From NCBI RefSeq assembly GCF_016026235.1, contig NZ_CP065613.1: a DNA stretch of 64,000 bases, one strand, 5' to 3'. The notes under the pieces were generated by a model that was given only the letters and a program-made list of their open reading frames with translations, had not been told where the DNA came from and searched no databases. The stretch is from Escherichia coli. Lineage in GTDB: Bacteria; Pseudomonadota; Gammaproteobacteria; Enterobacterales; Enterobacteriaceae. A program made the translations under genes and the position numbers. Positions 11,066 through 32,090 of the stretch are shown piece by piece (the stretch's first letter is position 1; every line of letters starts with the position of its first letter).

Positions 11066-11079
11066 TCTGATGAACGAAT

Positions 11080-13804: not shown

Positions 13805-13870
13805 AACTTCTCCCAACGTCGGGGGAATCTTCAATCTTCCCCCGAAACTACATCACAATATTTTATTCTT

Positions 13871-15190
13871 TCAGTGCAATACGGCGTTAATGGCTAACAC
13901 GCCCAGCAAACCCATAATAGAAATAAGGGTTTCCATCACCGTCCAGGTACGCAACGTTTCACCAACCGTCAGATTAAAATACCCTTTAAATAGCCAGAAG
14001 CCAGGGTCGTTTACGTGTGACGCGATCACGCTGCCCGCACCGGTTGCCAGTACCATTAAAGCGGGATCGGCATGGGTAACGTTGATAATCGGCAACACCA
14101 CACCCGCGGTGGTAATGGCCGCGACGGTGGCAGAGCCCAGAGCGATACGCAACAGCGCCGCAACAGTCCAGCACATCAATAACGGCGAAAGCGTAGTTCC
14201 GGTCATTAAGTGTGAAATATAGTGCCCGACACCGCTATCTACTAATACCTGCTTAAACGCGCCGCCGCCAGCGATAATAAACACAATCATCGCGATAGCG
14301 CCTATAGAATCCCCAATGATATCCATGATTTGCTCGATGGTGCGTCCATTACGTCGGCCCAGTGTGAAAATCGCAATAACAATGGCAATAAACAGCGCAA
14401 CGGCAGGGTTACCGACAAATTCAAAGAAGAGGCGCACGGTGTTAGTTTTCGGTAACGTAATTTCACAAACGGCGGCGATAGCCATCAGGATGACCGGGAT
14501 CACGGCAGCGAAAATACTGTTCCAGAAGGAGGGCATCTCCTCTTCGCTAAACAGATGAGGATTAAATAAGCCTTCCGGTGGTGCTTTCTCAAAGCGAGTT
14601 AGCAGTTTAGAAAACAGCGGTCCTGCGACAATAACTGTCGGAATGGTAATGATAAATCCATACAGTAAAGTCGTTCCGAGATTAGCCTCAAAGATAGTCG
14701 CGATGGCAGTAGGCCCTGGATGTGGCGGCAGAAAACAGTGGGTTACAGAGAGCGCTGCTACCATTGGTACGCCAACATACAACAGGGGTAATCCTGATGA
14801 TGCTACGATGGTAAATACCAACGGCAACAGCAGGACAAAACCCACTTCAAAAAACATGGCGAGGCCCACAACCAGACCAGTGATCACTAGCGCCCATTGC
14901 ACGCGTTTTTTACCAAAAGTAGCAATCAGCGTAGTGGCGATACGTTGTGCCGCACCCGTATCAGAAATCAGCTTGCCTAACATGGCCCCGAAACCGAGGA
15001 TCATTGCCAGCCCACCGAGCGTGCTGCCGATACCATTTTGTATAGAGTGCAGGACGGCCTGTGCATCCATCCCTTCGGCAAATCCGACGACGGCAGCTAC
15101 CAGAACGAGGGCAATAAAGCCGTTAACTTTAAAGCCGATCATCAGGATAAGAAGCAGCGCGACGCCTGCCGCAATAATGATTAATGGCAT
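13871..15190 (-). CDS. idnT: GntP-family L-idonate/5-ketogluconate transporter IdnT
   Basis: 439-aa polytopic membrane protein in idn operon context. Confidence 0.92.
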   Translation of the reverse strand: MPLIIIAAGVALLLILMIGFKVNGFIALVLVAAVVGFAEGMDAQAVLHSIQNGIGSTLGGLAMILGFGAMLGKLISDTGAAQRIATTLIATFGKKRVQWALVITGLVVGLAMFFEVGFVLLLPLVFTIVASSGLPLLYVGVPMVAALSVTHCFLPPHPGPTAIATIFEANLGTTLLYGFIITIPTVIVAGPLFSKLLTRFEKAPPEGLFNPHLFSEEEMPSFWNSIFAAVIPVILMAIAAVCEITLPKTNTVRLFFEFVGNPAVALFIAIVIAIFTLGRRNGRTIEQIMDIIGDSIGAIAMIVFIIAGGGAFKQVLVDSGVGHYISHLMTGTTLSPLLMCWTVAALLRIALGSATVAAITTAGVVLPIINVTHADPALMVLATGAGSVIASHVNDPGFWLFKGYFNLTVGETLRTWTVMETLISIMGLLGVLAINAVLH

Positions 15191-15254
15191 AGTCTTTATC
15201 TCTTATTAGTGCCAGAAAAGCAGCGCTTTCGCGCTGCACGTAGGGTAGTAGGTG

Positions 15255-16019
15255 TTAAACAGCCACTAACATGCCGCCATCAACAAACAACAGGTGGCCG
15301 TTTACGAAATCAGAGGCTTTTGAAGAAAGGAACACCGCAGCACCAATCAGTTCCTGCGGATCTCCCCAGCGTGCGGCGGGGGTCCGTTTGCACAACCAGG
15401 CGGTGAAGGCTTCGTCCTCAACCAGTGCTTTAGTCATTTCTGTTTTGAAATAGCCCGGCGCAATACCGTTGACCTGAATATTGTGGCGCGCCAGCTCGAC
15501 GCACATGCCGCGGGTGAGCATTTTTACCGCCCCTTTCGATGCGGCATAAGGGGTGATGGTGTCACGTCCCAGTTCGCTTTGCATCGAGCAAATATTAATA
15601 ACTTTACCTGCCTTGCGTTCAACCATGTGACGAGTTACCGCTTGCGATACCAGGAACACGGCGGTCTGGTTTACTGCGATCACATCATTCCACTCTTGTT
15701 CAGGGAACTCAGTAAAAGGATGACGGCGCTGGATACCGGCGTTATTCACCAGCACATCAATGGGGCCGATGTCCTTTTCGATATGTTCAACGGCGGCATC
15801 AATTTCATGTTTATGAGTAACATTAAAAGGTGCGGCAACGGCCTGAATATCCTCCTGGTGGAGTTTTTCTACAGCAAGTTCTGCGCGTTCGGCAGTAATA
15901 TCATTAATAATTATTTGTGCGCCATATTTACCCAGGCCGGTTGCCAGTAAAAAGCCAATGCCCTGTGCTGAACCGGTAATCAAGATATTTTTTCCTGCCA
16001 GTGAAAATAGATCGTTCAT
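15255..16019 (-). CDS. idnO: 5-keto-D-gluconate 5-reductase (SDR family) IdnO
   Basis: 254-aa SDR with TGSAQGIG cofactor motif. Confidence 0.92.
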   Translation of the reverse strand: MNDLFSLAGKNILITGSAQGIGFLLATGLGKYGAQIIINDITAERAELAVEKLHQEDIQAVAAPFNVTHKHEIDAAVEHIEKDIGPIDVLVNNAGIQRRHPFTEFPEQEWNDVIAVNQTAVFLVSQAVTRHMVERKAGKVINICSMQSELGRDTITPYAASKGAVKMLTRGMCVELARHNIQVNGIAPGYFKTEMTKALVEDEAFTAWLCKRTPAARWGDPQELIGAAVFLSSKASDFVNGHLLFVDGGMLVAV

Positions 16020-16042
16020 TGTATTATTCCTTTATTTATCTC

Positions 16043-17074
16043 TTAGAAAACAAGCTGGACTTTTGCTGCCTGGGTTTTATCACCGGCGAAACGTAGCGCC
16101 TCTTCCAGGTCAGTGAAGGGATATTCAGCACTCAGTAAAGGCAGTGGATTGATAACGCCATTCGCCAGCCATGACACTGCGGTATTAAATTCGCTGGTAA
16201 AACGGAAAGAGCCTTTGAGTGAAATCTCCTTACCAATCAATGTCATCATTGGGAATTCTGCCATCGCGCCTCCCATACCTACCTGCACCATTACGCCGCG
16301 TGCACGAGTGACCTCCAGACAGGTATTCACTGATGAAGGATGACCGGACACTTCAAAGCTGACATCGAAATAGCCTTTTTCCGCTTTCCAGTGATCCATG
16401 TCGTCGTTTTGTGGGTTTACGAGCACATCCGCCCCCATCTCTTTACCCAGCGAAAGGGAACGGGGACTCACATCGGCACAGACAATTTCCGCGGCCCCCA
16501 GTGTTTTCACAGCACTGACAATCAGGCAGCCAATGGGCCCAACACCAGAAATAAATACTCGCTTGCCCTGTAACTCGCCGGCCTGATGTGCGGCATGAAT
16601 CGCGACGGCTAAAGGTTCGGCAAAAGCCATAACCTTTTCGTCAGCTTTGGCCGGATAAGGGACACATTGCGACGTTTCGACCATTTTATAACGGGTAAAA
16701 CCACCATCAACATGAGGGAAATACATGGCACTGCCAAAAAAACGCATATCTGTACACTGATTCTCGTTATGTTCAATGCAGTATTTGCAGTGACCGCACG
16801 GTTTAGACGGATTAATGGCTACCGTTTGCCCTTCATGTAATTCTGATGAGTCGCTATGAATAACTTTACCGATAACTTCATGACCTAACACCATCGGTGC
16901 CTTTATCATGAAATTACCTACTTTTCCTTCCTGATAATAATGTAAATCGGAACCGCAAATTCCACCTCGGGTTATTTGTACTAATGTTCCATTATTATTC
17001 CAATCTATCGTCTGCTCGGTAACGGCAACAGTTTTCTTGCCCGCAACAACGCAGGACTGTGTTTTCACTTGCAT
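16043..17074 (-). CDS. idnD: L-idonate 5-dehydrogenase (zinc MDR family) IdnD
   Basis: 343-aa zinc-ADH fold (GHE, CxxCxxC motifs). Confidence 0.92.
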   Translation of the reverse strand: MQVKTQSCVVAGKKTVAVTEQTIDWNNNGTLVQITRGGICGSDLHYYQEGKVGNFMIKAPMVLGHEVIGKVIHSDSSELHEGQTVAINPSKPCGHCKYCIEHNENQCTDMRFFGSAMYFPHVDGGFTRYKMVETSQCVPYPAKADEKVMAFAEPLAVAIHAAHQAGELQGKRVFISGVGPIGCLIVSAVKTLGAAEIVCADVSPRSLSLGKEMGADVLVNPQNDDMDHWKAEKGYFDVSFEVSGHPSSVNTCLEVTRARGVMVQVGMGGAMAEFPMMTLIGKEISLKGSFRFTSEFNTAVSWLANGVINPLPLLSAEYPFTDLEEALRFAGDKTQAAKVQLVF

Positions 17075-17290
17075 AAATTCCTCACTGGTCAGGTAGACAC
17101 CTCGGAAGCATTTAAGCGGTTTTAATTGTTATTATTTGTGATGAAGATCACGTCAGAAAATTGTTACATTACTATGTTACGCATAACGTGATGTGCCTTG
17201 TAATTCTTATCAGCAGAAATAAAAAAACGTGAAATTATTATGCCACCAGGCGTAGTATCGCAGCAGGTAAGATGATTCAGGAGATTTTAA

Positions 17291-17854
17291 ATGGCGGGTG
17301 AAAGCTTTATTTTGATGGGCGTTTCAGGGAGTGGTAAAACATTAATTGGTAGCAAGGTTGCCGCGTTATTATCTGCTAAATTTATTGATGGTGACGATCT
17401 TCATCCAGCCAAAAATATAGATAAAATGTCGCAGGGTATTCCATTATCTGATGAAGATCGACTTCCCTGGCTGGAACGCTTAAATGATGCTTCATACAGT
17501 CTTTATAAAAAGAATGAAACAGGATTTATTGTCTGTTCATCATTAAAAAAACAGTATCGTGATATTTTACGCAAGGGTAGCCCCCATGTTCATTTCCTCT
17601 GGTTAGATGGCGACTATGAAACTATTCTCGCGCGAATGCAGCGTCGGGCTGGGCATTTTATGCCGGTAGCGTTACTAAAAAGTCAGTTTGAGGCACTGGA
17701 GCGTCCACAAGAAGATGAACAGGATATTGTGCGCATTGATATCAACCATGATATTGCCAATGTCACTGAACAATGTCGGCAGGCTGTGCTGGCGATACGA
17801 CAAAACAGAATATGTGCGAAAGAGGGCAGCGCCTCAGATCAGCGCTGCGAATGA
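17291..17854 (+). CDS. idnK: gluconokinase IdnK
   Basis: 187-aa P-loop kinase (GVSGSGKT), divergent from idnD. Confidence 0.92.
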   Translation: MAGESFILMGVSGSGKTLIGSKVAALLSAKFIDGDDLHPAKNIDKMSQGIPLSDEDRLPWLERLNDASYSLYKKNETGFIVCSSLKKQYRDILRKGSPHVHFLWLDGDYETILARMQRRAGHFMPVALLKSQFEALERPQEDEQDIVRIDINHDIANVTEQCRQAVLAIRQNRICAKEGSASDQRCE

Positions 17855-17857
17855 TTT

Positions 17858-18877
17858 TCAAAAATCGGCTTTCAACACCACGCGGTAACGCGCCTTACCG
17901 TCGCGCACATGCTGGATGGCGTCGTTAATTTTCGACATCGGGAACAATTCGGTAGTCGGCGCAACCTTGCTGCGGGCGGCAAAACGCATCAGCTTACGCA
18001 ACTCATAAGGCGTGCCAGTAGCAGAGCCAGAGACACTGCGATCGCCCGCAATTAACGTAAAGGCCGGAACAGACAGCGGCGTGAGAACCGCACCGACCGT
18101 ATGGAAATTACCGCCATACGTCAGCGCCTCAAAATAAGGCTGCCAGTCGAGGCTGACGTTCACAGTATTGATAATGAGATCAAACTGCCCCGCCAGAGTT
18201 TTCAGTGCCTGCGGATCGCGGCTATTCACCACTTTATCGGCACCCATCGCCAGTACTTCCTGCTCTTTCGCCGGATTTGAACTAAAGGCTGTCACCTCGC
18301 ATCCCATTGCGTGCAGAAGTTTTATAGCGATATGCCCCAGCCCGCCAATACCAATTACCCCAACGCGGCTGGTAGCAGTGATATGGTGCATCAACAGTGG
18401 TTTAAAGACCGTGATACCGCCGCACAACAGCGGCCCGGCGGACTCGATATCAATATTTTCTGGCAGTGGAATCACCCATTGCCAGTCCGCACGCAACTTC
18501 TCGGCAAAGCCACCGCGATTCATAATCGTCGGCACCGCACCTTGCTCGCAGTTGATCTGATTACCGCTAATACAGGCGTCGCAGTGACCACAGCTACGCG
18601 CCGTCCAGCCAATCCCGACACGCTGACCGACCTGCAAACCTTTATCCTGCGCGGCGCTCCCGAGTGCCACCACGCGCCCAATCACCTCATGCCCGGCAAC
18701 CAGCGGATACTGTGAAAATCCCCATTCGTTATCGATCATCGACAGATCGGAATGGCAGATCCCGCAGTAATCCACCTGCACTTCAATATCTTGTGGCTTC
18801 AGCTCACCGGGATCGTACTCATAAACTTCCAGTTCTCCGCCCGCTTCTTTTGCGGCATAGCTTTTTATCATCGACAT
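17858..18877 (-). CDS. ahr: NADPH-dependent aldehyde reductase Ahr (YjgB)
   Basis: Zinc-ADH family; start at [11 protein letters not shown] giving 339 aa. Confidence 0.9.
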
Positions 18878-19015
18878 TTTTTGGTCCTTCTCTGGTGTTG
18901 TCTGGGAAGTGTAGAGCATGGCAGGGCGGGGTGCCTGGAGTGTGACAAAGGTTACACATCGCGGTATGCAATGCTGAAAATTTCAGCACTTAGCGAGGTG
19001 CGAGCAAGCTGGCGC

Positions 19016-19043
19016 TTGCATGGTGGTGCGTGACAGGTATAAT
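19016..19043 (+). promoter_or_regulatory. putative sigma70 promoter of leuX (-35 TTGCAT, -10 TATAAT)
   Basis: TTGCAT and TATAAT hexamers with ~16-17 bp spacing about 30 bp upstream of the tRNA 5' end. Confidence 0.5.
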
Positions 19044-19072
19044 TCACAACGTTTTCCGCATACCTCTTCAGT

Positions 19073-19157
19073 GCCGAAGTGGCGAAATCGGTAGACGCAG
19101 TTGATTCAAAATCAACCGTAGAAATACGTGCCGGTTCGAGTCCGGCCTTCGGCACCA
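19073..19157 (+). tRNA. leuX: tRNA-Leu (anticodon CAA)
   Basis: 85-nt sequence GCCGAAGTGGCGAAATCGGTAGACGCAGTTGATTCAAAATCAACC...GGCACCA with CAA anticodon loop, long variable arm and 3' CCA. Confidence 0.9.
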
Positions 19158-19320
19158 TTAGTACTTCCAAGAACATCCGAGAAAGTCCAATTATTCCTTA
19201 AAAATCAATGCTTGCAGCGACTTTTACGTCCTGTGTCTTCCGAGGTTGTCCGTTGAAATCCGGATGTTATTGGGGGCATAATTGGGGGCATCTTAACTTC
19301 GATTAGAAATGTGCCCCCAA

Positions 19321-20577
19321 ATGAAGCTTAACGCCAGACAGGTCGAGACCGCAAAGCCAAAAGACAAAACCTACAAAATGGCCGATGGTGGCGGTTTGTA
19401 TCTTGAGGTTTCGGTCAAAGGTTCCAAATACTGGCGCATGAAATACAGACGTCCCTCTGACAAAAAAGAGGATCGCCTCGCTTTTGGTGTTTGGCCTACT
19501 GTGACGCTTGCTCAGGCAAGAGCAAAACGCGATGAAGCTAAAAAGCTTTTAGTACAGGGCATAGACCCAAAAGTCGTACAAAAAGAAGCTCAGGCCGAGA
19601 ATTCGGGGGCATATACTTTTGAAACTATCGCCCGAGAATGGCATGCCAGTAACAAGCGTTGGAGTGAAGACCATCGATCGCGTGTTCTTCGCTATCTTGA
19701 GCTTTATATCTTTCCTCATATTGGTTCGTCCGACATTCGGCAGCTTAAAACCAGCCACCTGTTAACCCCGATTAAAAAAGTTGATGCCAGTGGCAAACAC
19801 GATGTCGCTCAGCGCCTGCAACAGCGCGTCACGGCCATTATGCGTTATGCCGTACAGAACGATTACATCGACTCAAATCCAGCCAGCGATATGGCCGGTG
19901 CGCTATCGACAACCAAAGCGCGACATTACCCTGCTTTACCTTCTAGCCGGTTCCCTGAGTTTCTTGCACGTCTTGCTGCCTATCGCGGCCGCAAAATGAC
20001 GCGTATTGCAGTCGAGTTATCTCTACTTACCTTCGTTCGCTCTAGTGAGATGCGATTTGCCCGATGGGATGAGTTTGATTTTGATAACGCCTGCTGGCGG
20101 ATACCGGCGCGGCGTGAAGAAATCGAAGGTGTGCGTTACTCCTATCGTGGGATGAAGATGAAAGAGGAACATATTGTTCCATTGAGCACTCAGGCTCTAG
20201 CTTTGCTGGATGAGTTGAAGAAGCTTAGTGGAGATAATCCTAGACTGTTTCCCGGTGATCATGATCCCAATAAAGTTATGAGCGAAAACACAGTTAATAA
20301 TGCGCTCAGGACTATGGGCTACGACACACAAACGGAAGTATGTGGGCATGGTTTTAGAACAATGGCGCGTGGTGCTTTGGGGGAGTCGGGGCTTTGGAGT
20401 GATGATGCGATAGAACGTCAGTTAAGCCACTCGGAGCGCAATAATGTTCGTGCAGCTTATATCCATACTTCAGAGCATTTGGACGAACGTCGATTGATGA
20501 TGCAATGGTGGGCGGATTTCCTATCAGCAAATCGTGAGACTTTCGTAACACCATTTGATTTTGCAAAAAAATATTAA
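19321..20577 (+). CDS. intB: P4-type tyrosine integrase
   Basis: Begins MKLNARQVETAKPKDKTYK; C-terminal catalytic region with HGFR...R motifs; lies immediately 3' of a tRNA gene. Confidence 0.9.
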   Translation: MKLNARQVETAKPKDKTYKMADGGGLYLEVSVKGSKYWRMKYRRPSDKKEDRLAFGVWPTVTLAQARAKRDEAKKLLVQGIDPKVVQKEAQAENSGAYTFETIAREWHASNKRWSEDHRSRVLRYLELYIFPHIGSSDIRQLKTSHLLTPIKKVDASGKHDVAQRLQQRVTAIMRYAVQNDYIDSNPASDMAGALSTTKARHYPALPSSRFPEFLARLAAYRGRKMTRIAVELSLLTFVRSSEMRFARWDEFDFDNACWRIPARREEIEGVRYSYRGMKMKEEHIVPLSTQALALLDELKKLSGDNPRLFPGDHDPNKVMSENTVNNALRTMGYDTQTEVCGHGFRTMARGALGESGLWSDDAIERQLSHSERNNVRAAYIHTSEHLDERRLMMQWWADFLSANRETFVTPFDFAKKY

Positions 20578-20668
20578 TAATTGATTTTTTCTGTATGTTT
20601 TTGTTAGGTATTAATCAATTTCAGTTTTACTTTCATCTATAACAGACTTATACACGGAATGATGCGTT

Positions 20669-23409
20669 ATGATTACAAAAGATATAGTTGTTAGTGCATA
20701 TAATTGTCTTAAGTCATATGCTTACTACGAAAACTTAAATTTTTTCCTAAAGGAAGAAATCGCTCAATTTGAAGATTCTCTCTATGACGAAAAAATAGAA
20801 AAAGTGGTTGATTTTTTTGAAAATAATAATGACATTAACTTTAATGAGTGGCTAAATAAAATTGATGTTGAATTATTACCAAAAAAAATTGATAGCCATT
20901 TGGATATTGAGCAAACGAGCGGAGCTCTTTTTTTAAGTAATAATAAGACATCAGATGAATACAAAGTAGGTGCTGTAAATTATTTGATCGTTGCTCCTAT
21001 TGAAATATATTTAATAGAAACACTCTGGTCTATCTTTGTTGGTTCAATGCTAGATGACAAGTTTTCTGATTCGGTTTATGGAAATAGAATATCAAAAGTA
21101 ATAAAAAATATTCTAAGAATAGTTTCGATGCGCCAAAAAACTCCTCAAAAAATATCTTTGAAAGATACATTGATAATTATAATAAATGGCGAGATGGTGG
21201 TATCGATAAAGCGATAGAAGTTATAGAAAAAGAGCGAAATGATGTTGCAATTCTTTCTCTGGATCTTAAGGGTTTTTATTATAATATAGATATAGATTTT
21301 GATGCCATTGATAGAATTATTGACGAAGAACAATTAGAAGAAATTAAAGCTCTTTCTATGTTGTTGAATAGTAAATTGAGGTTGATGCATCAAAAATACA
21401 GAGAGAAAATATCTCCATATATTGGTGTGACACATTCAACTCCTTCATCAAAAGGCATTCCAATTGGATTTACTTCTTCTGCCATATTATCTAATTGGTA
21501 TTTAATGGGTTTTGATAAAGATATTAAATCAAAAATTAACCCATCGTACTACGGTCGCTATGTGGATGATATTCTTTTAGTTTTTTCATCCCCGGACATT
21601 AAAAAAGAAGATAAAGGTGAAGAAGTAATAAAATTCATAGAGCGAACCCTTAATGGATTCATTAAACAGGCAGCGAATGATGAGAAAGGCTTTACGTTGA
21701 CCGAGAGTTATCATGAATTACCAATTCAAAAGGATAAATTGATTTTTCATTATTTCAATAAAGATCATAGTTTGGCTGGTTTACAAGTCTTCAAACAAGA
21801 AATTGAGAACAGAAGCAGTGCATTTCGTTTTTTACCGGAAGAACATATATCTAGCGATCTCGATAAATTTGCTTATGATATATTACTTGATGGTTCGGCA
21901 AATAAATTTAGAAGTATTGTAGGTTTGGCAGAGAATGAAACTGAATTATCAAAATATATATCATCACATATCTTAGCTCATAGGCTTTGCAATCTTCCAT
22001 CGAATGAGAATACCTTAAAGCAAATAACGCTGTTTTTTAAAGGTGAAAATTCTCTAAGGTTCAGTCGGTTATGGGAGAAAGTTCTATCGTATACATTAAT
22101 TACAAGAAAATATGGATTTTCAATCGCCTTTTACAAACAAATTAAAGAATCAATTAATAAAATTAAGTGGAAGGAAGGTGATAGTGTTATATCTCCAAAA
22201 CTTAAAAATGGAATGCAGAAATACATTGATATTTCTCTTTGTTTGAATTTGGCTTTGTTAGATTTAAATGTCATTTTAGGTGATAAAGAGCCACAAAATA
22301 GAGCTTTGGAAGGTTTGAAATCTTTAATTAAACAGTCCGATGGAATGTCTGTTCTAATTGAAAGATTTAGAAGCAGTAATTTGATTCGTCATAATCTAGT
22401 GTCTTGGCCTTTAGCTAACTATACTAAATATAAAGGAGATCTTACTGAGGAGAATTTATACAGTAAGATGCATGGTATTCCACTTGATAATGATAAATTA
22501 AATAAAACCCCTAGATATATTCATGCTGATGAAAAGCAGCTTTTCGATTTGATTGATGCTCTTCATACAAGAAAACTACATAAGTTTACGCATGAAAATA
22601 AGCATCACTTAAAAAATTGCTCTGTTACTAAGATAAAAGATAATAAAGCTCTTGAAATAAAGGTAGGAATTGATGATAGAAGTGGTAATGACACAATAAA
22701 AGTTGCGTTGGCAAATATGAGAGTTGAACGTCGTAATATTGAAAGTGCTTGCAGAAAAGATCAGTCTCCAAATTTAAGTTATGAACGACAAAGAAACCTT
22801 TATCGTATTCTCAACTCGGCAACTGAAGAAAATGTGCAGATATTACTACTCCCTGAGTTATCAATTCCTGTGTCGTGGTTACCTTTTATGGCAGCACATT
22901 CAAGGAGAAAACAAATATCTTTGATTTTCGGATTAGAGCATTGGGTTATTAACGAACGCGCATATAATATTTTGGTTGAAATGCTGCCTTATACTTCAAA
23001 CTTTAAACACAAATCCAGTATGTTAGTTTTTCGAGTGAAAAATCATTACGCACCTAGTGAGATTACGATGCTGAATTCTTTAAGGTTAAAAATATCCTCT
23101 CCTAAACCTAGTAAACAACGGTATCATTTGATTAAGTGGAAAAACGTATCATTTTCTACATACAACTGTTTTGAACTGGCTAATATCGAGCATAGAGCAT
23201 TATTTCGTTCGCAGTTGGATATTTTATTTGCTTGCGTATGGAATCAAGATATAAATTATTATCAACATATCACTGAGTCAGCGACACGGGATTTACATTG
23301 TTATGTGGCTCAATCGAATACTTCGCATTATGGCGGTTCTTGTGTTCTACAACCGACCAGTAGCACTATTTCAAATAAGATATATGTAAAAGGTGGGGAA
23401 AACCACTGA
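20669..23409 (+). pseudogene. reverse transcriptase-nitrilase fusion (DRT1/UG1-like), with a -1 frame change near 21130-21155 and 3' end severed by IS insertion
   Basis: Frame switch between ORF 20669..21217 and the frame carrying RT motif A (AILSLDLKGFYYNID) and motif C (YGRYVDDILLVF); C-terminal nitrilase-superfamily triad motifs LLLPELSIP, FRVKNHYAPSE, STYNCFELAN; stop codon TGA supplied by the IS end. Confidence 0.7.
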
Positions 23410-24700
23410 GGGATCCCCAGAAAATTTAGTAAACCATTATCATATTGGTATACCGTTGCTGTAGAACTTTCAGCCCTGCGTCAAGTGACAGTGTGTTTAG
23501 TATGAGTGGAGAATGTCGAATCACATTCTCCGCCAGTTTTAATAACGAGATGACTCGCCTGTGCTTCACTGTATTTGCCTGATATTTATGATGTATCCCT
23601 TTGTTTTCCAGGCTGAAACCGCTTAACCACATAATGATACTGGCTAATGTTGCGATCAGACTCAATACCGTGACCCGCCCGGATGAATGACTGGCACCAA
23701 ACCGTAGTCCAAATCCCCAGCGAGGATTTTTTTCATCCCTGAAATTTTGCTCAATTTGCATTCTACGGCTGTATAATTTCATTACCTGTTTTGGCGAGAA
23801 CTCAGTACTGTTTGTGAAAATAAACCATGGTGATTTCCCGGCAGTACGAGCTTTAGCCGTCACCGATGGTCTGGTTGCTCTTTCCTTCGAGCGTTTAAAT
23901 CTACGACCTTTAGGCTTACTTTTATAAAGATAAAAATGCCCTTCATGTTGTGCATTTTTATCTCGACCCAGCAGGCCTTCACCTAAATAAATTGCTGTCG
24001 TTGATGCTTTTGTGCCTGAGTCCGACACCTTTTCCCAGCCATTACCAACATTGTAATAATGATTGCCCAGTACCCGGCAAATATAGGTCCAGCCACGGGA
24101 GCGGAGCTGTTGGAACCATCGCCCCTGAAAACCGGCATCTGTAATAACAATGACATCAGTCCCGGGGGAAAAGCACTCAGCAAGCGATTCCAGAAAACGC
24201 TCATGTACATCTGCATTCGCTGTCTGTGATGATGGAACGACACAACTCATCAACGGTAAAGAACGCCCGTCACATGCCAGGCTTGCCCGCAAAAGCTGAA
24301 AACGAGAGGCATGATAAGCACTCCAGTCAATGAGTATCACAACACGAGACATTCCCCGCGTAATCTTTTGGGTAATTCGCTGAAAAATGGTGGAAACCTC
24401 ATTTTGCAAATGTCGATTCCCCAACAGTCGATCCACCCGCTTTATTTTGTTTTTAACTGATGCCGTACCGGTTAAATGACGCCCGATACTGGTAAGTGTG
24501 AGGGAAGCGCCATTTATTACAGCATTAGTTGCGTCAATCAGTGATTTTTGACGGTAAAGATGCAAAGGGGCCAGTATGTTGTTAAGGAAATTTTGGCATA
24601 ATGAACGTGCAGGCATAGTGGTGATCTCCTTGAAATTGTTAGCACAATCAATTAGATCACATCTCACTATGCCTGTCTTGTTTTCTGGGGATTCCTCAGG
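23406..24700 (-). mobile_element. IS4-family insertion sequence (IS10-like), copy 2, flanked by 9-bp direct repeat GGAAAACCA
   Basis: Same element as copy 1 at a constant offset; duplicated 9-mer at 23397..23405 and 24701..24709. Confidence 0.85.
23426..24616 (-). CDS. IS4-family (IS10-like) DDE transposase
   Basis: Identical protein to copy 1; the ORF-track N-terminal extension crosses the IS boundary and is not part of the gene. Confidence 0.8.
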   Translation of the reverse strand: MPARSLCQNFLNNILAPLHLYRQKSLIDATNAVINGASLTLTSIGRHLTGTASVKNKIKRVDRLLGNRHLQNEVSTIFQRITQKITRGMSRVVILIDWSAYHASRFQLLRASLACDGRSLPLMSCVVPSSQTANADVHERFLESLAECFSPGTDVIVITDAGFQGRWFQQLRSRGWTYICRVLGNHYYNVGNGWEKVSDSGTKASTTAIYLGEGLLGRDKNAQHEGHFYLYKSKPKGRRFKRSKERATRPSVTAKARTAGKSPWFIFTNSTEFSPKQVMKLYSRRMQIEQNFRDEKNPRWGFGLRFGASHSSGRVTVLSLIATLASIIMWLSGFSLENKGIHHKYQANTVKHRRVISLLKLAENVIRHSPLILNTLSLDAGLKVLQQRYTNMIMVY

Positions 24701-24709
24701 GGAAAACCA

Positions 24710-24848
24710 TTGCATCCTAACTACTACTTTAAATATATATGCATTGAGAGAGGCTCAATATCGTTCATTCAGAATTAACTCCGATACTATTAAACACAAT
24801 CCTCCAGGGTTTGACTATAATGCTCTATTAGAGCGAGGTGAGAAATGA
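24710..24848 (+). pseudogene. displaced 3' end (last 45 codons) of the RT-nitrilase gene
   Basis: After removing the IS and one duplicated 9-mer the RT frame continues ...GGENH-CILTTTLNIYALREAQYRSF...ERGEK to TGA at 24846..24848. Confidence 0.65.
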
Positions 24849-25534
24849 GTAGCTTTTGGGAAGGTATTTTGTCATCAAGCATTTCATTTGCAATTATTGG
24901 ATTTGTTTGTAAGGCTTTTTTACAACATATTGATAAAAGAGAGTTAGAATCATTTAAAAATAAGTTGAAATATGAAAGTGAACAGAGAATTAAAGAGGAT
25001 GAACGTGCTTATAATTTTAAAAAAGCAAGAGATCTTGAAATCGGACGTTGGGGGTTAACATTACTTAGTGCTGCAAATGGTTTTTTAGGAAGGCTATGTT
25101 ATATTAAAGATCACAATGACCTATCGTCGGATCAATATTATATTGATAGTACAAGATTCTATCTATGCCAATATTTTTGCTGGGTACATCAATTCAGGAA
25201 AAATAGAGATTCATCTGTATTTTCACCAACTAATGATGAAATGTTAATAACTGAATTAATCAAAAATATTTCTATAGCCCTACGAGAGAACGATATTGGT
25301 TTTCCTTGTATTAGATCTCTTGAACAAAAGTATATAGGTGAAAGCCTTAGCATTGGTGCTGAATGTATGTCCTATAAAGATTTTATCGATTCTAAAGTAT
25401 TAGAAAACTATGCACCTCTAAATGATTTTGTTGAAGCAATTCTACAAAATAATAATAAAGATTATATCGATAAACTCGTTATCCCATTCCAAGATCTCAA
25501 GACCAGATTTGATGCGGCATTACAAAATAAATGA
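24845..25534 (+). CDS. hypothetical protein with N-terminal transmembrane helix, translationally coupled to the RT-nitrilase gene
   Basis: 229-aa ORF; ATGA start/stop overlap with the RT tail; hydrophobic segment ILSSSISFAIIGFVCKAFL; AT-rich like the RT gene. Confidence 0.6.
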   Translation: MSSFWEGILSSSISFAIIGFVCKAFLQHIDKRELESFKNKLKYESEQRIKEDERAYNFKKARDLEIGRWGLTLLSAANGFLGRLCYIKDHNDLSSDQYYIDSTRFYLCQYFCWVHQFRKNRDSSVFSPTNDEMLITELIKNISIALRENDIGFPCIRSLEQKYIGESLSIGAECMSYKDFIDSKVLENYAPLNDFVEAILQNNNKDYIDKLVIPFQDLKTRFDAALQNK

Positions 25535-25735
25535 TTTTTTTACCTGCGCGCAATGCTCTCCCCGCCTCGCCCGCCCGCTTTGCGGGGCGGTTTTAATGCA
25601 GTTGCACTGACACGCTCAGACCGCGCCGGGAATGGCGCGGTCTGCAGAAAATGAGGCAGGGAAACGCATGCAAAGCCATGCACCTTATCGATGCATGGCT
25701 TTTTTCAGTAAAAACAGGCGGATTTTCGGGGAATT

Positions 25736-26279
25736 TTACACAGACTGACGTGATGCCAGTTGCGCACTTTTACGCGAAAAAATCATGTTCTGCGCAGGGG
25801 TGAATTTTTCACGGCTGTCATCCACCGAAGCCGCGTCAGGCCTGAATCCGATGGTCGTTAAAATGTCGCTATCCTGTGCGGAATAATTAATTTTTTCACC
25901 CTTCGCAAGCCAGGACAGGAGGGCTTCACGCAGGGCATCTGTGGCACGCTGTATGGCACAGTTTCGGGCAATGGCCGTCAGCTCACTGTAGCCCATCAGC
26001 TCCGGTGCCAGTGCCGCCGCCAGTGCTGTGCCGTGCTGCTGCATAAAATCATTCAGCCGGTCGCGGATGCTGATGTGCTGAACGGCTTCATGCGAACGAA
26101 TATAACGACCGGCGGCCTGATTCACCTGCCATTTTCTGACTTCGATAATATTGCGTAATTCGTCCAGGCGACTGACGTTTCTGCCTTCTCCTGACAGAAG
26201 CCGCAGATATTCCTGTTCGGCCGCAGCCAGCTCATTTTTGCGTTGCAGCCATGCTGCTTTGTTATTCTGACAGGTGTCA
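25736..26279 (-). pseudogene. psu: P4 Psu-like (polarity suppression) protein, 5' end truncated by IS1
   Basis: 180-aa alpha-helical product recognised as P4 Psu-like; the first codons of ORF 25736..26293 are read from IS1 terminal sequence, so the native start is missing. Confidence 0.55.
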
Positions 26280-26334
26280 GGTAATGCTGCCAACTTACTG
26301 ATTTAGTGTATGATGGTGATTTTAAGGTGCTTGC

Positions 26335-26610
26335 GTGGCTTCCATTTCCATCAGATGTGCTTCCTGCTCCGCTACTGAAGGCGTGGTGCGTAACGGCAAA
26401 AGCACTGCCGGACATCAGCGCTATCTCTGCTCTCATTGCCGTAAAACATGGCAACTGCAGTTCACTTACACCGCCTCTCAGCCCGGTACGCACCAGAAAA
26501 TCATTGATATGGCCATGAATGGCGTCGGATGTCGCGCCAGTGCACGCATTATGGGCGTTGGCCTCAACACGGTTTTACGTCACTTAAAAAACTCAGGCCG
26601 CAGTCGGTAA
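26335..26610 (+). CDS. insA: IS1 InsA
   Basis: 91-aa product with zinc-finger CxxC...CxxC and HTH, matching InsA. Confidence 0.9.
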
Positions 26611-27032
26611 CCTCGCGCATACAACCGGGCAGTGATGTGATTGTCTGCGCTGAAATGGACGAACAGTGGGGCTACGTCGGTGCTAAATCACGTCAGCGCT
26701 GGCTGTTTTACGCGTATGACAGGATACGGAGGACGGTTGTGGCGCACGTCTTCGGTGAACGCACTCTGGCCACACTGGAGCGTCTTCTGAGCCTGCTGTC
26801 GGCCTTTGAGGTCGTGGTATAGATGACGGATGGCTGGCCGCTGTATGAATCACGCCTGAAGGGAAAGCTGCACGTTATCAGCAAGCGTTACACTCAGCGC
26901 ATTGAGCGACATAATCTGAATCTGAGACAACATCTGGCAAGGCTGGGACGGAAGTCACTGTCGTTCTCAAAATCGGTGGAGCTGCATGACAAGGTCATCG
27001 GGCATTATCTGAACATAAAACACTATCAGTAA
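26529..27032 (+). pseudogene. insB: IS1 InsB with internal TAG stop at 26820..26822
   Basis: InsB frame is split into ORFs 26529..26822 and 26823..27032 by one stop where IS1 normally has a Trp codon (VVIWMTDGW). Confidence 0.7.
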
Positions 27033-27345
27033 GTTGGAGTCATTACCCGGCGTGCGTGCCAGGTACAGTCGTTCGGCTGGAAAAATACGGGGGCTGAGCC
27101 TGCTGGCAACACTGAGCACAATAGTGCGGTGGCTTATTGGCTATCACGCTTAAAATAAAGGGGTAGATCTGAGACAGCAGGCCAACAGAATTAAAACGCG
27201 GCGGGTAATATCGTATCTGACATTAGCGAAGAATATCTTGCGATACTCCTCGCTAATTTTAAAACGAATGGTGCTGATCACCGTTCTTAATCACTTCGCC
27301 AGAACCGACCATAATATGGTGTTGGTTTATTAGCGCTGATTCATG

Positions 27346-27358
27346 GGGATCCCTCAGT
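27346..27358. repeat. solo 13-bp match (GGGGATCCCTCAG) to the terminal repeat of the IS4-family element
   Basis: Exact reverse-complement of the IS left terminus (CTGAGGGATCCCC) with no adjacent IS body. Confidence 0.4.
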
Positions 27359-27380
27359 GCTTTTGCGGTTTTTTATATCT

Positions 27381-28205
27381 TTAAAGCAGTAGCGGTAGGG
27401 TCGCGCTGGCAGTTTGCTGGCTCACATCGCTGTACTTATGATCCAGCGCAATCAGCGATGTGGTGAGTAACTCTACCAACAGCATAACTCCCACCTTGGC
27501 ATTCAGCGCGCCAGCGCTCAAGGGGCCTTCCGGTTTGGCCGCGACCAGTTGAATATCACTCAGCGAAGCTAACGGACTGCGCGGCGTATTACTCAGCGCC
27601 AGTACACGCACACCTTGCTTACGCGCTAGTTTTACGACATGCAGCAGATCGCGCGTGGATCCAGAACTGGAAATCGCCACCACGAACGTGTTTTTACTAA
27701 GTGTTGTGGCGTTCATGGCAGCACGATGCATATCGCTGAACAATTGTGCGGGTTTCCCCAGACGCAGGAGTTTGTAATGTAAATACTCCCCCAGAATAGC
27801 ACTGGCTGCTACGCCATAAATCTGTACTGACTGAGCCTGATGCAGTGCAAGCGTGGCTGCTTCCAGCAAGGTCCTATCGAGTAATTTTGCTGTGTCCTGT
27901 AGTGCTTGCACGGATTCATTGACCACATTGTCAATCTCATCACCGCCGTACTCTACAGACTGTACTTGTCGGAGATCGAGTGCAAGCGCCATTTTGAATT
28001 CGTTATAGCCCTTACACCCCAGCGTTCGGCACAGACGTGTGACGCTAGCCTCGCTGGTGCCGCTTTCACGCGCCAGTTCGGTAATCGTCAGGTAGACAAC
28101 TTTTGCCGGATCGCTAAGTACAAACTCTCCCAGCTTCTGTTGAGTTCGACTATATCCATCAACGCTCTGGCGCAATCTCAGCAGCAGGTTTTCATTTTCT
28201 GGCAT
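27381..28205 (-). CDS. RpiR/MurR-family transcriptional regulator (HTH + SIS domain)
   Basis: 274-aa ORF; N-terminal HTH (LTITELARESGTSEASVTRL) and SIS sugar-phosphate-binding region; divergent from the PTS gene. Confidence 0.8.
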   Translation of the reverse strand: MPENENLLLRLRQSVDGYSRTQQKLGEFVLSDPAKVVYLTITELARESGTSEASVTRLCRTLGCKGYNEFKMALALDLRQVQSVEYGGDEIDNVVNESVQALQDTAKLLDRTLLEAATLALHQAQSVQIYGVAASAILGEYLHYKLLRLGKPAQLFSDMHRAAMNATTLSKNTFVVAISSSGSTRDLLHVVKLARKQGVRVLALSNTPRSPLASLSDIQLVAAKPEGPLSAGALNAKVGVMLLVELLTTSLIALDHKYSDVSQQTASATLPLLL

Positions 28206-28370
28206 GCAAAATCCTTAATGCGTTTCTCTGCCGATAGTGTGGCGGAAAGTAGGGGAGAGATGCCAGTCATTTTAAAAAAGTATGATCGGTGTCTTGGTTT
28301 TTGATGGTAATTTTCATTTTTAAAATTAGTTATGGTAAAAATTTTTATCAATAATCGGGGAGATGAAAAA

Positions 28371-29927
28371 ATGATGCAAATATTTAGCGGCGCTTCGTCA
28401 GGCGCATGGTTTGAAAAAGCGCAGCGGTTCGGCAAATCGTTCATGCTGCCGATTGCGGTATTGCCCGCAGCGGGGTTGTTGTTGGGGATTGGTGGGGCTC
28501 TGTCGAATCCCAATACGTTGACGGCCTACCCATTCTTGAATGTCGACTGGCTGCAGGCAATCTTCACAATCATGACCAGCGCAGGTTCTATTGTGTTTGC
28601 CAACCTGTCGGTACTCTTTGCGGTCGGCGTCGCCGTGGGGCTGGCGAAATCGGATAAAGGCACTGCCGGGCTTGCGGCATTGCTAGCGTTTCTGGTGATG
28701 AATGCTACCATCAACGCCTTATTAACGCTAAATGGAACGTTGGCGCACAAGAACCCCGGTTCAGTTGGCCAGGGGATGACGCTTGGTATTCAGACACTGG
28801 AAACTGGTGTGTTTGGTGGGGTGGTGATTGGTCTCGTCACCTGCACGTTACATAGCCGTTTCAATAAAGTCTCACTACCTCAGTTTCTCGGTTTTTTTAG
28901 TGGTTCTCGTTTTGTACCCATTATCAGCTCCCTTGCCGCGATAGTAGTGGGTGCGGTTATGACGGTGGTGTGGCCGCATTTCCAGAAACTCATTTTTGGA
29001 CTGGGCGGCCTGGTGGATGCGACGGGCTATCTGGGGACGCTGTTGTACGGCTTCATCCTGCGTATGCTTGGTCCACTGGGTTTACACCATATCTTTTATT
29101 TGCCGTTCTGGACGACGGCGCTGGGCGGCAGTGAAATCGTCAACGGCCAGTTGGTTGAAGGTACGCAGCGGATTTTCTTTGCCCAACTTGCCGATCCGAA
29201 TACGCAGCAGTTCTACGCGGGTACCGCTCGCTTTATGTCCGGGCGCTTTATCACCATGATGTTTGGCCTGCTTGGCGCATGTCTGGCAATGTACCATACG
29301 GCAAAGCCGGAGAATAGAAAGGTTGTCGCCGGACTACTTTTGTCGGCAGCCTTGACCTCTTTCCTGACGGGAATCACTGAGCCTGTTGAGTTCTCCTTCC
29401 TGTTTGTCGCGCCCGTATTATACGTAATTCACGCCTTCTTCGATGGTCTGGCGTTTATGGTCGCCCATATTTTACATATCACTATTGGGCAAACCTTTTC
29501 GGGCGGGCTTATCGATTTCCTTCTCTTCGGCGTGTTGCAGGGGGAATCTAAAACAAACTGGATGTATGTCCCCATAGTGGGAATACCGTGGTTCTTCCTT
29601 TACTACTTCACTTTCCGCTATTTGATTAACCGCTTTGGCTGGCTGACGCCGGGTCGTGAGAACGTAACCCTGGTTGAATCCGGCCAGCCTCAGAGTGAAC
29701 GCGCAGCGGCAGTCATTGCCGGGCTGGGAGGCAAAGAGAATCTGGAAGAGGTGGACTGTTGCGCCACGCGCCTGCGCGTGACGGTTAAAGAGAGCAGTAA
29801 GGTAGATGAAGCTGCGCTGAAAGTGACCGGAGCGCGTGGCGTGATTATTCGCGGCAACGGCGTTCAGGTGATTTATGGCCCTCATGTCACCATCATTAAA
29901 AACGAAGTCGAAGAGATTTTATCGTAA
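28371..29927 (+). CDS. PTS glucose-family EIICB component
   Basis: Polytopic EIIC followed by EIIB motif CATRLR; GGGGAG Shine-Dalgarno ahead of ATG at 28371 (ORF track starts at 28332). Confidence 0.8.
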
Positions 29928-30616
29928 TGAAAACTGTACTGGATTCCCTGAAAGGTAAATTAATCGTCTCCTGTCAGGCTCTGGAAAATGAGCCTCTACA
30001 TAGTCCGTTTATTATGTCACGTATGGCGCTGGCGGCAGCACAAGGTGGTGCTGCAGGTATCCGTGCCAACAGCGTGGCGGATATTAGTGCTATCAAAGAG
30101 ATTGTCTCCCTTCCGATGATAGGGATTATCAAACGCGATTACCCTGGCAGTGAGGTGTTTATCACGGCCACTCTCCGGGAAGTGGATGAGTTGATGACCG
30201 TTGAGCCGGAAATTATTGCCCTGGATGCTACTGCGCGCCCGCGCCCTGGTGGTCAGACGCTGGAAGAACTGGTCACGCAGATCCGCGCTCGCTACCCGTC
30301 CGTACTTCTGATGGCAGATATAGCAACAGTAGAAGAGGCGGTGACAGCTGAACGTCTGGGTTTTGACTGTGTGGGCACTACGCTCTACGGCTATACCGCA
30401 GAAACTGCCAGGCATGTGCTGGCGGAAAATGACTGTGGATTCTTACGTGAGGTCCTGGCAGCGGTCAGCGTTCCGGTTGTGGCGGAAGGGAACGTCGATA
30501 CCCCGGAACGTGCCGCACGTTGCCTAACATTAGGCGCTCATACCGTGGTGGTTGGGGGGGCAATCACTCGTCCGCAGCAGATAACGACACGCTTTATCGC
30601 GGCGATCGCCTCGTAA
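29927..30616 (+). CDS. putative N-acetylmannosamine-6-phosphate 2-epimerase (NanE family)
   Basis: 229-aa TIM-barrel-like product; start overlaps the EIICB stop (TAATG). Confidence 0.75.
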
Positions 30617-30643
30617 AGCACCGATGGGGTATGATACTTTGGT

Positions 30644-30673
30644 GGGGATAAGCGATAATTATCGCTTATCCCC
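30644..30673. repeat. perfect 30-bp palindrome GGGGATAAGCGATAATTATCGCTTATCCCC
   Basis: Exact dyad symmetry directly downstream of the NanE-like gene, without a T-run. Confidence 0.6.
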
Positions 30674-31856
30674 ATATTGAGAGTGTTATGCAGTACCCGA
30701 TTAGCTAGATTTTCCAGACCCTGCAAGGTGAGGGGGACTATTGACGCGCTGGACGAACTATTCGCCACGCTGAGCTACGACAAACCGCGGGTGATTGCGC
30801 TGCACTTTAAAATTTCCGAAGGTTATACCCTGTTGATGCTGATTACCACCTTCACCAGCTGCCTGATATTGTGCAAAAACTACGGCTGGTGAAGGTTGGT
30901 TTTACCATTACTGCTGTATATACCCTGCAACTGTTATGGCTGAATGGCGAGCAGTACATCCTTCCGTGTCTTATCAACACCATTATTGGTTGTTTAATTG
31001 CTTCGGCGGTACCGTCTGGTTGTGGTCACAGTGGTATAACGGGTTATTGCGTAAGAATGCCCATGACGCTTCAGAAGCCTATCAGAAAGTGATATTGGCT
31101 CAGCAGCACTTTACAAACGGCGGTACAGTGGCTGGGAGATTATTGCCGATCCGATATGCCGCATTAATGAGAGAGTTCATCATAGGAGAACGCTTTTGCC
31201 AAATAAACCACCTGCCTGTCGTCCAGAATCGCCGCGTAGCTGGTTTTCCCAACCGTTTGCTCAGAAATGAGATCAATAGCCGCAAATCGCGGGCCTGATC
31301 GATGCTTTCAATATAGTTAGCCGCCATTTTTTGCAGCGCCAGGCCCACGTGATACAAGCGTGTATCCGGCATATAGAGCGGATAGTCGTTATCGAGAAAC
31401 TCCTGAGTCAGGCAGTGGGCGGAGCTTCTGGGAATATAGAGGTAATCTGCGAGGCGATCTGATGTATAATCTGTTTAGTAAGAGTAGCGTTTTTAACGCT
31501 ATTACGTCCATGGTGTAGCCTATATGCAGGCAAAGTTCATATCCTTGAGTTTTATGTCAGCCTCTTCCTTTAAGCATCTACTTGGTGTCTATCGTTACTT
31601 CGCACACAAGCATCATGTATATGATGTAACGAAATTAGTTAACGCCCTTATAAGAATCAAGACGTTATCGGGACGCTGTTAACCTGGCTATCCATCCCAA
31701 AACCGGTGCTGACTGGCAATAGCGCGGACAGCAAAATCGGGTGATGACACCGGGGCAGAATGAAAAATATTATCTTGCTGGCGCGTTACATAGCTGAACG
31801 GGCAAAGTCTGCTACGTGGGCAGTAACCGCAAAGTTCAGCCTTATTTATCAGTCTG

Positions 31857-32090
31857 TTGAAGCAACTGAAGTCTGTGTACCGGCGGGCAAAAACGATGCC
31901 CCTCATCGTGGATAATTACATTATTCACAAAAGCCGGGAAACGCAGCGTTGGCTGAAGGAAAATCCGAAGTTCAGGGTGATTTATCAGCAAGTTTACTCG
32001 CCATGGGTAAATCATTTTGAACGGCTATGGCAGGCGCTTCATGAAACGATAACGCGCAATCATCAGTGCCGGAGATGTGGCAGTTGCTGA
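31857..32090 (+). pseudogene. C-terminal fragment of a DDE transposase (IS630-like motif YSPWVNHFERLW)
   Basis: 77-aa ORF with no N-terminal catalytic domain; surrounding frames broken. Confidence 0.4.

What the first reader, a model, noticed from the sequence alone, without database searches (positions are those of the whole stretch)
23397..24848. IS insertion severs the last 45 codons of the RT-nitrilase gene and separates it from its coupled partner
Seen: the RT ORF ends in a TGA that belongs to the IS terminus (cacTGAggg). Removing the IS (23406..24700) and one copy of the 9-bp duplication GGAAAACCA restores the frame through 45 more codons to a stop at 24846..24848, which overlaps the ATG of the next gene. 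Inference: the insertion truncated the nitrilase C-terminus and removed the downstream gene from the operon, so the system is probably inactive; the clean duplication and identical IS copies suggest a recent event.
Basis: seen in the sequence. Interest (0 to 1): 0.55.

Follow-up and report, generated by a model that had tools for sequence, protein, structure and literature searches.

The report
IS insertion in a dead defence gene
A mobile element (ISEc60) has inserted into the end of a known anti-phage reverse-transcriptase gene in an E. coli satellite-prophage remnant, but the gene already carried an older one-base frameshift, so this is ordinary gene decay.

Summary
An IS4-family element, ISEc60, lies at 23406..24700, flanked by GGAAAACCA. 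The upstream ORF stops at a TGA inside the IS. Removing the IS and one repeat copy restores 45 codons to a stop at 24846..24848, overlapping the ATG of the next gene. The excised sequence has no base difference at the junction from IS-free E. coli loci.

The gene is the known UG5-large "RT-nitrilase + 1TM" anti-phage system of the P4-like satellite hotspot at tRNA-Leu, validated by Rousset et al. 2022. The intact protein has 958 aa.

A 1-bp deletion (A7 to A6, 21103..21108) shifts the frame at codon 147. IS-free relatives share it, and its exact product is on 32 public contigs, against one for the IS-truncated product. The IS therefore most likely hit an existing pseudogene.

The lost 45 residues are conserved in all full-length homologues. 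They align to the C-terminus whose deletion abolishes defence in the related DRT1. The TM partner gene is intact, but no promoter was detected for it. The satellite itself is cut by IS1. All components are known, so interest is low.

The parts
19073..19154 (+). tRNA-Leu, the attachment site of the P4-like satellite
   Evidence: Rfam tRNA, 59 bits. Annotated tRNA-Leu at the same place in homologous loci.
19309..20577 (+). P4-type tyrosine integrase (422 aa)
   Evidence: NCBIfam integrase domain, E 1.5e-82. Annotated tyrosine recombinase in L001-L003.
20546..20668 (+). Upstream region of the RT operon, part of the native-promoter insert of the validated clone
   Evidence: Window 20546..20944 is identical to the first 399 nt shown for clone pFR76 of Rousset et al. 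2022.
20669..21217 (+). 5' fragment of the RT-nitrilase gene: residues 1-146 correct, then 36 out-of-frame residues
   Evidence: PADLOC RT_UG5-nitrilase profile positions 1-150 of 958, E 1.4e-83. The translation diverges from the intact protein at aa 147.
21103..21108 (+). A6 run: site of the 1-bp deletion (A7 in intact alleles) that frameshifts the RT gene
   Evidence: Alignment with the intact locus L001 and the frameshifted locus L002; coordinates.
21358..23409 (+).
   Evidence: PADLOC profile positions 231-958 for the repaired version. YVDD lies at residues 298-301. There is no Shine-Dalgarno sequence before 21358.
23397..23405 (.). Left copy of the target-site duplication GGAAAACCA (possibly 10 bp, from 23396)
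23406..24700 (-). ISEc60 (IS4 family): terminal inverted repeats CTGAGG(G/A)ATCCCCAGAAAA, transposase on the minus strand (about 23426..24616)
   Evidence: 100% identical to copies annotated ISEc60 on E. coli and Shigella plasmids. NCBIfam transpos_IS4_2, 360 bits against a cutoff of 152. Three copies in the window.
24701..24709 (.). Right copy of the target-site duplication GGAAAACCA
24711..24848 (+). Severed 3' end of the RT-nitrilase gene: codons 914-958 plus stop
   Evidence: In-silico excision. No base difference from IS-free loci. Conserved columns L916, L925, R926, Q929, K941, P944, P945, G946, R955.
24845..25534 (+). Intact partner gene: 229-aa single-TM protein (RTasTM), start overlapping the RT stop (ATGA)
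   Evidence: PADLOC RTasTM positions 1-229 of 229, E 5e-164. Hydrophobic helix at residues 8-26. No nucleotide difference from WP_000094232 loci.
25571..25590 (+). Terminator-like hairpin after the operon
25736..26293 (-). psu (polarity suppression) gene of the satellite, cut at its 5' end by IS1
   Evidence: Homology to L001 ends at window 26279. Annotated psu.
26280..27047 (.). IS1 copy that ends the P4-like remnant; the rest of the satellite is absent

Best explanation
Shown: ISEc60, an IS4-family insertion sequence carried on EIEC/Shigella pINV-type plasmids, transposed into codon 913/914 of the UG5-large RT-nitrilase gene. That gene belongs to the 'RT-nitrilase + 1TM' anti-phage system, which sits in the defence hotspot (int to psu) of a P4-like satellite integrated at tRNA-Leu. 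The insertion duplicated 9-10 bp of target. The reading frame now runs into a TGA four bases inside the IS. The lost segment is the last predicted beta-strand of the nitrilase domain plus the conserved C-terminal tail, 45 aa in all. About 1.3 kb carrying an antisense transposase gene now separates the RT gene from the TM gene, which was probably translationally coupled to it.

Inferred: the RT gene was already a pseudogene when the IS arrived. A slip in a poly-A run (A7 to A6, 21103..21108) shifts the frame at codon 147, before the RT catalytic motifs. That allele is shared with close relatives that lack the IS. The locus is therefore a defence system dead from at least two lesions. It sits in a satellite remnant that IS1 has also truncated, in an IS-rich genome with rearrangements at IS copies. 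The TM gene is intact, but the simple promoter scan found nothing between the IS and its start codon, so it is probably silent.
For: - IS identity, boundaries and duplication.
- Exact restoration on excision, and identity to IS-free loci.
- System identity: PADLOC RT_UG5-nitrilase (E = 0) and RTasTM, full length. The first 399 nt shown for the validated E101 clone pFR76 are identical to window 20546..20944. Mestre et al. 2022 describe UG5-large and state that the TM protein is required.
- Frameshift. PGAP flags the gene 'frameshifted' in JNE170426 and FDAARGOS_943.
- Order of events: FDAARGOS_943 is 99.9-100% identical to the window over 36 kb. It shares the A6 allele but has an empty ISEc60 site and an IS1 elsewhere in the gene. 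The 182-aa frameshift product is on 32 contigs; the IS-truncated 683-aa product is on 1.
- Importance of the lost tail: more than 100 homologues of 955-1040 aa cover the whole query. Nine columns are invariant beyond residue 913. The region aligns to DRT1 residues around 1196-1229, and catalytic C834 aligns to DRT1 C1116. C-terminal deletions of 8 to 12 residues abolish DRT1 defence (PMC13275509).
- No sigma-70-type promoter between the IS and the TM start codon.
Against: - The order of events rests on parsimony. An A7 run is a slippage hotspot, so the frameshift could have arisen more than once. Precise IS excision from the relative is conceivable, though rare.
- No expression or phage data exist for this allele.
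- The AlphaFold model has low confidence over most of 810-958 (pLDDT mostly below 50). The structural role of the 45 residues therefore rests on conservation and a weak pairwise alignment to DRT1 (E = 0.039).
- An extended -10-like motif inside the IS faces outward, so the TM gene may not be fully silent.
Confidence: 0.85

Rival explanations
1. One reading: the ISEc60 insertion is the event that inactivated a working RT-nitrilase/TM system, and the frameshift came later or independently as neutral decay.
For: The IS removes a conserved, probably essential C-terminus and uncouples the TM gene. An A7 homopolymer can slip recurrently.
Against: The closest relative, FDAARGOS_943, has the frameshift without the IS, as does JNE170426. 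The frameshift product is on 32 contigs, against 1 for the IS product. This order would need two independent identical slips or a precise excision.
Confidence: 0.1
2. The insertion is not pure loss. An outward-facing promoter near the transposase end of ISEc60 (as with pOUT of IS10) now drives the orphan TM gene. A 90-aa hybrid ORF (24576..24848) may help, because it ends on the ATGA overlap. The TM protein would then be expressed without the RT.
For: - An extended -10-like TGGCATAAT lies at 24594..24602 on the + strand, about 100 bp inside the IS end and pointing at the TM gene.
- The hybrid ORF keeps the stop/start overlap.
- From my own knowledge: IS10 pOUT can activate adjacent genes.
Against: - The standard promoter scan finds nothing on the + strand between 24400 and 24845.
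- There is no Rfam RNA-OUT match.
- A very stable hairpin lies just downstream of the motif, at 24609..24676, and could stop or structure such a transcript.
- No recognisable -35 element.
- No expression data.
Confidence: 0.07
3. Assembly artefact: the IS was misplaced by the assembler, or the A6 run is a homopolymer sequencing error.
For: IS copies and homopolymers are classic sources of assembly and base-calling errors.
Against: - Both junctions carry a proper target duplication.
- The left junction and the A6 run are present in an independent draft assembly.
- A6 is found in at least four other independent assemblies and on 32 contigs.
Confidence: 0.02

Closest known systems
UG5-large 'RT-nitrilase + 1TM' anti-phage system of P4-like satellite hotspots (E. 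coli E101, clone pFR76; Rousset et al. 2022, PMC9122126; Mestre et al. 2022, PMC9226505)
   Same: - Same gene pair, same position (between int and psu at tRNA-Leu), same overlap of RT stop and TM start.
- The 399 nt of the clone that are available are identical to the window.
- The repaired protein differs from WP_000628823 by one residue, M499I.
   Different: Here the RT gene carries a -1 frameshift at codon 147 and an ISEc60 insertion after codon 913, so the system is a pseudogene. The surrounding satellite is truncated by IS1.
DRT1 (UG1 RT-nitrilase; structure 9yfd; PMC13275509)
   Same: - Class 3 UG/Abi RT with a fused C-terminal nitrilase domain.
- The catalytic Cys aligns (C834 to C1116).
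- The paper reports that the UG5-large enzyme (DRT5L) also makes protein-primed, template-free DNA.
- The DRT1 C-terminal tail is essential, which is the best available guide to what losing 45 residues does here.
   Different: - Different clade and size (958 aa against about 1230 aa).
- Only weak, partial matches to the PADLOC Drt1a profile.
- The paper says the DRT1 priming serine is not conserved in other class 3 DRTs.
ISEc60 (IS4 family)
   Same: 100% nucleotide identity to copies annotated ISEc60. It has an IS4-family DDE transposase, about 19-bp terminal inverted repeats and a 9-10 bp target duplication.
   Different: Nothing of note. The exact duplication length (9 or 10 bp) could not be settled, because every target examined has a G at the ambiguous position.
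IS-driven pseudogenisation in Shigella/EIEC-type E. coli genomes
   Same: The window holds many IS copies (ISEc60 x3, IS1, ISSso6, an IS4 fragment), disrupted genes and a rearrangement at an IS copy. The nearest genome, FDAARGOS_943, is full of IS600, IS1, ISSfl3 and flagged pseudogenes.
   Different: None; this is a typical example.

Membership tests
UG5-large RT-nitrilase + TM defence system | Reverse-transcriptase domain with a YxDD active site | tested here: met
   Pfam RVT_1 at residues 171-328, E 9e-11. YVDD at 298-301. PADLOC RT_UG5-nitrilase, E = 0.
UG5-large RT-nitrilase + TM defence system | C-terminal fused C-N hydrolase (nitrilase) domain with a catalytic Cys | tested here: met
   PADLOC RTasNitrilase, E 1.6e-34. 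E730, K791 and C834 are invariant. C834 aligns with DRT1 C1116. HHpred places CN_hydrolase at 678-929 in Rousset Table S3.
UG5-large RT-nitrilase + TM defence system | Downstream single-TM partner protein | tested here: met
   PADLOC RTasTM positions 1-229 of 229, E 5e-164. One hydrophobic helix at residues 8-26.
UG5-large RT-nitrilase + TM defence system | Uninterrupted RT-nitrilase reading frame of about 958 aa | tested here: not met
   Frameshift at 21103..21108 and ISEc60 at 23406..24700.
UG5-large RT-nitrilase + TM defence system | Confers phage resistance | not testable with these tools
   Shown for the E101 allele at room temperature (PMC9122126). Not expected for this disrupted copy.
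DRT1 (UG1) | Full-length match to the Drt1a profile, protein of about 1200-1300 aa | tested here: not met
   Drt1a matches only residues 26-128 of the 728-aa query, at 73 bits. The intact protein is 958 aa.
ISEc60 / IS4 family insertion sequence | IS4-family DDE transposase | tested here: met
   NF033591, 360 bits against a cutoff of 152.
ISEc60 / IS4 family insertion sequence | Terminal inverted repeats and a target-site duplication | tested here: met
   Inverted repeats match at 18 of 19 positions. Distinct 9(10)-bp duplications flank 3 of 3 window copies and 5 independent insertions elsewhere.
ISEc60 / IS4 family insertion sequence | Near-identity to the named element | tested here: met
   100% over 1295 bp to several copies annotated ISEc60.
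P4-like satellite | Integrase next to a tRNA, with the defence hotspot bounded by psu | tested here: met
   Order is tRNA-Leu, int, RT/TM, psu.
P4-like satellite | Remaining core genes (delta, sid, alpha primase and others) | tested here: not met
   Homology to the complete element L001 stops at window 26279, inside psu, where IS1 begins.

The most novel reading that the evidence does not exclude
The insertion has functional consequences beyond loss. An outward promoter in ISEc60, with a hybrid ORF that keeps the ATGA overlap, would express the orphan TM effector without its RT. Alternatively, the repeated independent hits on this RT gene (A-run slip, IS1, ISEc60, and partial-coverage loci in other genomes) reflect selection against a costly defence system that was assayed only at room temperature, in an invasive E. 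coli lineage.
Probability: 0.07. Interest if true: 0.35.

Novelty: already known. Interest (0 to 1): 0.15.

Why it matters
It matters mainly for annotation.
- Defence-system finders that score HMM hits would report an RT_UG5-nitrilase plus RTasTM pair here, although the system is dead from two lesions.
- The largest ORF (683 aa) misrepresents the gene.
- The locus is a dated example of stepwise decay: first the frameshift, then independent IS1 or ISEc60 hits in sister strains.
- No new biology is implied.

Tried and rejected
- AlphaFold2 on the 958-aa intact protein with a 24-sequence alignment. The RT half is confident, but most of 810-958 has pLDDT below 50. I did not use the model to judge the C-terminus and ran no fold search.
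- Pfam finds only RVT_1; the nitrilase domain is too divergent for it.
- NCBIfam has no model for the RT-nitrilase, the TM protein or psu.
- Rfam finds no RNA-OUT-like family or any ncRNA near the RT gene, only the tRNA.
- The sigma-70 scan found no outward promoter at the IS end.
- I tried to settle 9 against 10 bp for the duplication with five more ISEc60 copies. All have G at the ambiguous base, so it stays unresolved.
- No complete RefSeq E. coli genome carries this exact insertion. Only one draft contig does.
Full report
**1. The observation**

- ORF 21358..23409 ends ...GAA AAC CAC TGA. The final C of the His codon and the TGA are bases 1-4 of an inserted element that begins CTGAGGGATCCCCAGAAAA.
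- The other end of the element is the near-perfect inverted repeat, ...TTTTCTGGGGATTCCTCAG(G).
- GGAAAACCA flanks it at 23397..23405 and at 24701..24709.
- The window holds two further copies in the same orientation, at 2340..3634 and 38418..39712. Each is 1 nt different from this copy and has its own 9-bp duplication.
- Deleting 23406..24700 and one repeat copy extends the ORF by exactly 45 codons, to a stop at 24846..24848 that overlaps ATG 24845.

One small correction applies. In all eight independent insertions examined (three in the window, five on plasmids), a G precedes the left 9-mer. The event could therefore equally be a 10-bp duplication by a 1294-bp element with symmetric ends. The targets look like GGGG-N5/6-CC(C). 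This does not affect the excision product.

**2. What the inserted element is**

- It is 100% identical to elements annotated 'IS4-like element ISEc60' on plasmids. Several of these are large IncF plasmids of E. coli from humans, and one is a Shigella dysenteriae pINV plasmid.
- Its transposase scores 360 bits on NCBIfam transpos_IS4_2, against a cutoff of 152.
- The transposase is on the minus strand, antisense to the disrupted gene.

**3. What the disrupted gene is**

PADLOC assigns the repaired ORF to RT_UG5-nitrilase (E = 0), but only to profile positions 231-958 of 958. The small upstream ORF 20669..21217 matches positions 1-150 of the same profile. The downstream 229-aa ORF is a full-length RTasTM, with a single N-terminal hydrophobic helix.

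A search of complete E. coli genomes with the excised locus found 30 chromosomes that carry it at 99.7-99.9% identity. In intact examples such as NZ_CP062910, the gene order is:
- tRNA-Leu;
- tyrosine integrase;
- a 958-aa 'RNA-directed DNA polymerase' (WP_000628823);
- a 229-aa hypothetical protein (WP_000094232) overlapping it by 4 nt;
- psu, an ogr/delta-like gene, and the rest of a P4-like satellite.

This is the P4 defence hotspot described by Rousset et al. 2022 (PMC9122126). They validated an 'RT-nitrilase + 1TM' system (UG5) from E. coli E101 as anti-phage, assayed at room temperature. The 399 nt available from their cloned insert pFR76 are identical to window 20546..20944. Mestre et al. 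2022 (PMC9226505) classify it as UG5-large and state that the TM protein is required. It is not DRT1, because Drt1a profiles give only weak partial matches.

**4.

Alignment of the excised window gene with the intact gene shows a single-base gap. The run GTAATAAAAAAATATT (A7) in the intact gene is A6 in the window, at 21103..21108.
- The frame is lost at residue 147, well before the RT motifs (Pfam RVT_1 at 171-328, YVDD at 298-301).
- The result is a 182-aa product.
It starts at an internal Met (residue 231) with no Shine-Dalgarno sequence.
- Once repaired for both lesions, the gene differs from WP_000628823 by one residue, M499I, and three synonymous changes.

**5. Order of events**

- E. 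coli JNE170426 has the A6 allele and no IS. PGAP flags its gene 'frameshifted'.
- E. coli FDAARGOS_943 is colinear with window 1..36293 at 99.9-100% identity. It shares A6, shares the IS1 that cuts psu, and shares the ISEc60 copy near dnaJ. It has an empty site at 23405/23406 and instead carries an IS1 at window position 20965-20973 of the same gene.
- The exact 182-aa frameshift product is recorded on 32 public contigs. The IS-truncated 683-aa product is on one, GCA_002467115.1, which carries both the junction and A6.

The most parsimonious history is that the frameshift came first and sister lineages then took independent IS hits in a gene that was already dead. I put about 0.85 on this. Recurrent slippage at A7, or precise excision, are the alternatives.

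**6. Would the truncation alone have mattered?**

The evidence says yes, by three lines.
- More than 100 homologues from many genera are 955-1040 aa long and cover the whole query.
- In a 24-sequence alignment (43-88% identity), columns L916, L925, R926, Q929, K941, P944, P945, G946 and R955 are invariant.
- The segment aligns with DRT1 (PDB 9yfd) from about residue 1196 onward, and catalytic C834 aligns with DRT1 C1116. In DRT1 the last 19 residues are domain-swapped over the neighbouring nitrilase pocket, and deletions of 8 to 12 C-terminal residues abolish defence (PMC13275509). The same paper reports that the UG5-large enzyme (DRT5L) performs protein-primed, template-free DNA synthesis. 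That is the best current guide to how the intact system works.

This remains an inference by homology. My AlphaFold model was unreliable over most of 810-958.

**7. The partner gene**

RTasTM is intact, with no nucleotide difference from functional loci. It now lies behind 1.3 kb of IS that carries an antisense gene. No sigma-70-like promoter was detected between the IS and its ATG. Three features suggest a small chance of outward transcription:
- an extended -10-like motif (TGGCATAAT, 24594..24602, + strand);
- a very stable hairpin at 24609..24676 (z = -5.1);
- a 90-aa hybrid ORF that ends on the ATGA overlap.

Rfam finds no RNA-OUT homologue. I rate this possibility low.

**8. Context**

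- The satellite is a remnant. IS1 cuts the 5' end of psu, and everything beyond psu is missing.
- The window also contains an IS110-family ISSso6 copy at a rearrangement breakpoint relative to FDAARGOS_943.
- The nearest genome is rich in IS600, IS1 and ISSfl3 and in flagged pseudogenes.

**9. Verdict**

The IS truncates the gene and uncouples its partner, and the event is recent. The gene model was incomplete, and an older frameshift most likely did the killing. Every component is already described, so novelty is 'already known' and interest is low. The value lies in correct annotation and in a tidy example of stepwise decay.

Noticed in passing
window 21103-21108: A 1-bp deletion in a poly-A run (A7 to A6) frameshifts the RT-nitrilase gene at codon 147. 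IS-free E. coli strains share it, and its product is on 32 public contigs.
   Followed up: yes
window 2340-3634: A second ISEc60 copy is inserted in the palindromic terminator-like sequence GGCCGGAGCATGCTCCGGCC between valS and yjgN. The site is empty in the near-identical strain FDAARGOS_943.
   Followed up: partly
window 38418-39712: A third ISEc60 copy lies between mokC/hokC and dnaJ. FDAARGOS_943 shares it, so it is older than the other two.
   Followed up: partly
window 36289-37815: An ISSso6 (IS110 family) copy marks a rearrangement breakpoint. Window 1-36293 matches FDAARGOS_943 3088711 to 3054251 in reverse. Window 36290-64000 matches 2927630 to 2955341 forward. This is consistent with recombination between two ISSso6 copies.
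   Followed up: partly
window 25736-27333: IS1 (about 26280-27047) replaces the first ~10 codons of psu, and the rest of the P4-like satellite is deleted. An IS4-family transposase fragment follows at about 27049-27333.
   Followed up: partly
window 23396-23405, and loci L007-L012: ISEc60 target sites in eight independent insertions resemble GGGG-N5/6-CC(C). A G always precedes the 9-bp repeat, so a 9-bp duplication cannot be told from a 10-bp one.
   Followed up: partly
window 24576-24848: An extended -10-like TGGCATAAT (24594-24602, + strand), a very stable hairpin over the transposase start (24609-24676, z = -5.1) and a 90-aa hybrid IS/RT ORF that ends on the ATGA overlap with the TM gene. 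There is no Rfam RNA-OUT hit.
   Followed up: partly
L003 (NZ_CP065615.1), and hits H17, H18, H46, H47: The same RT gene is independently disrupted in other E. coli genomes. Three genomes have an IS1 at window-equivalent 20965-20973, and two genomes match only 51% and 29% of the locus.
   Followed up: partly
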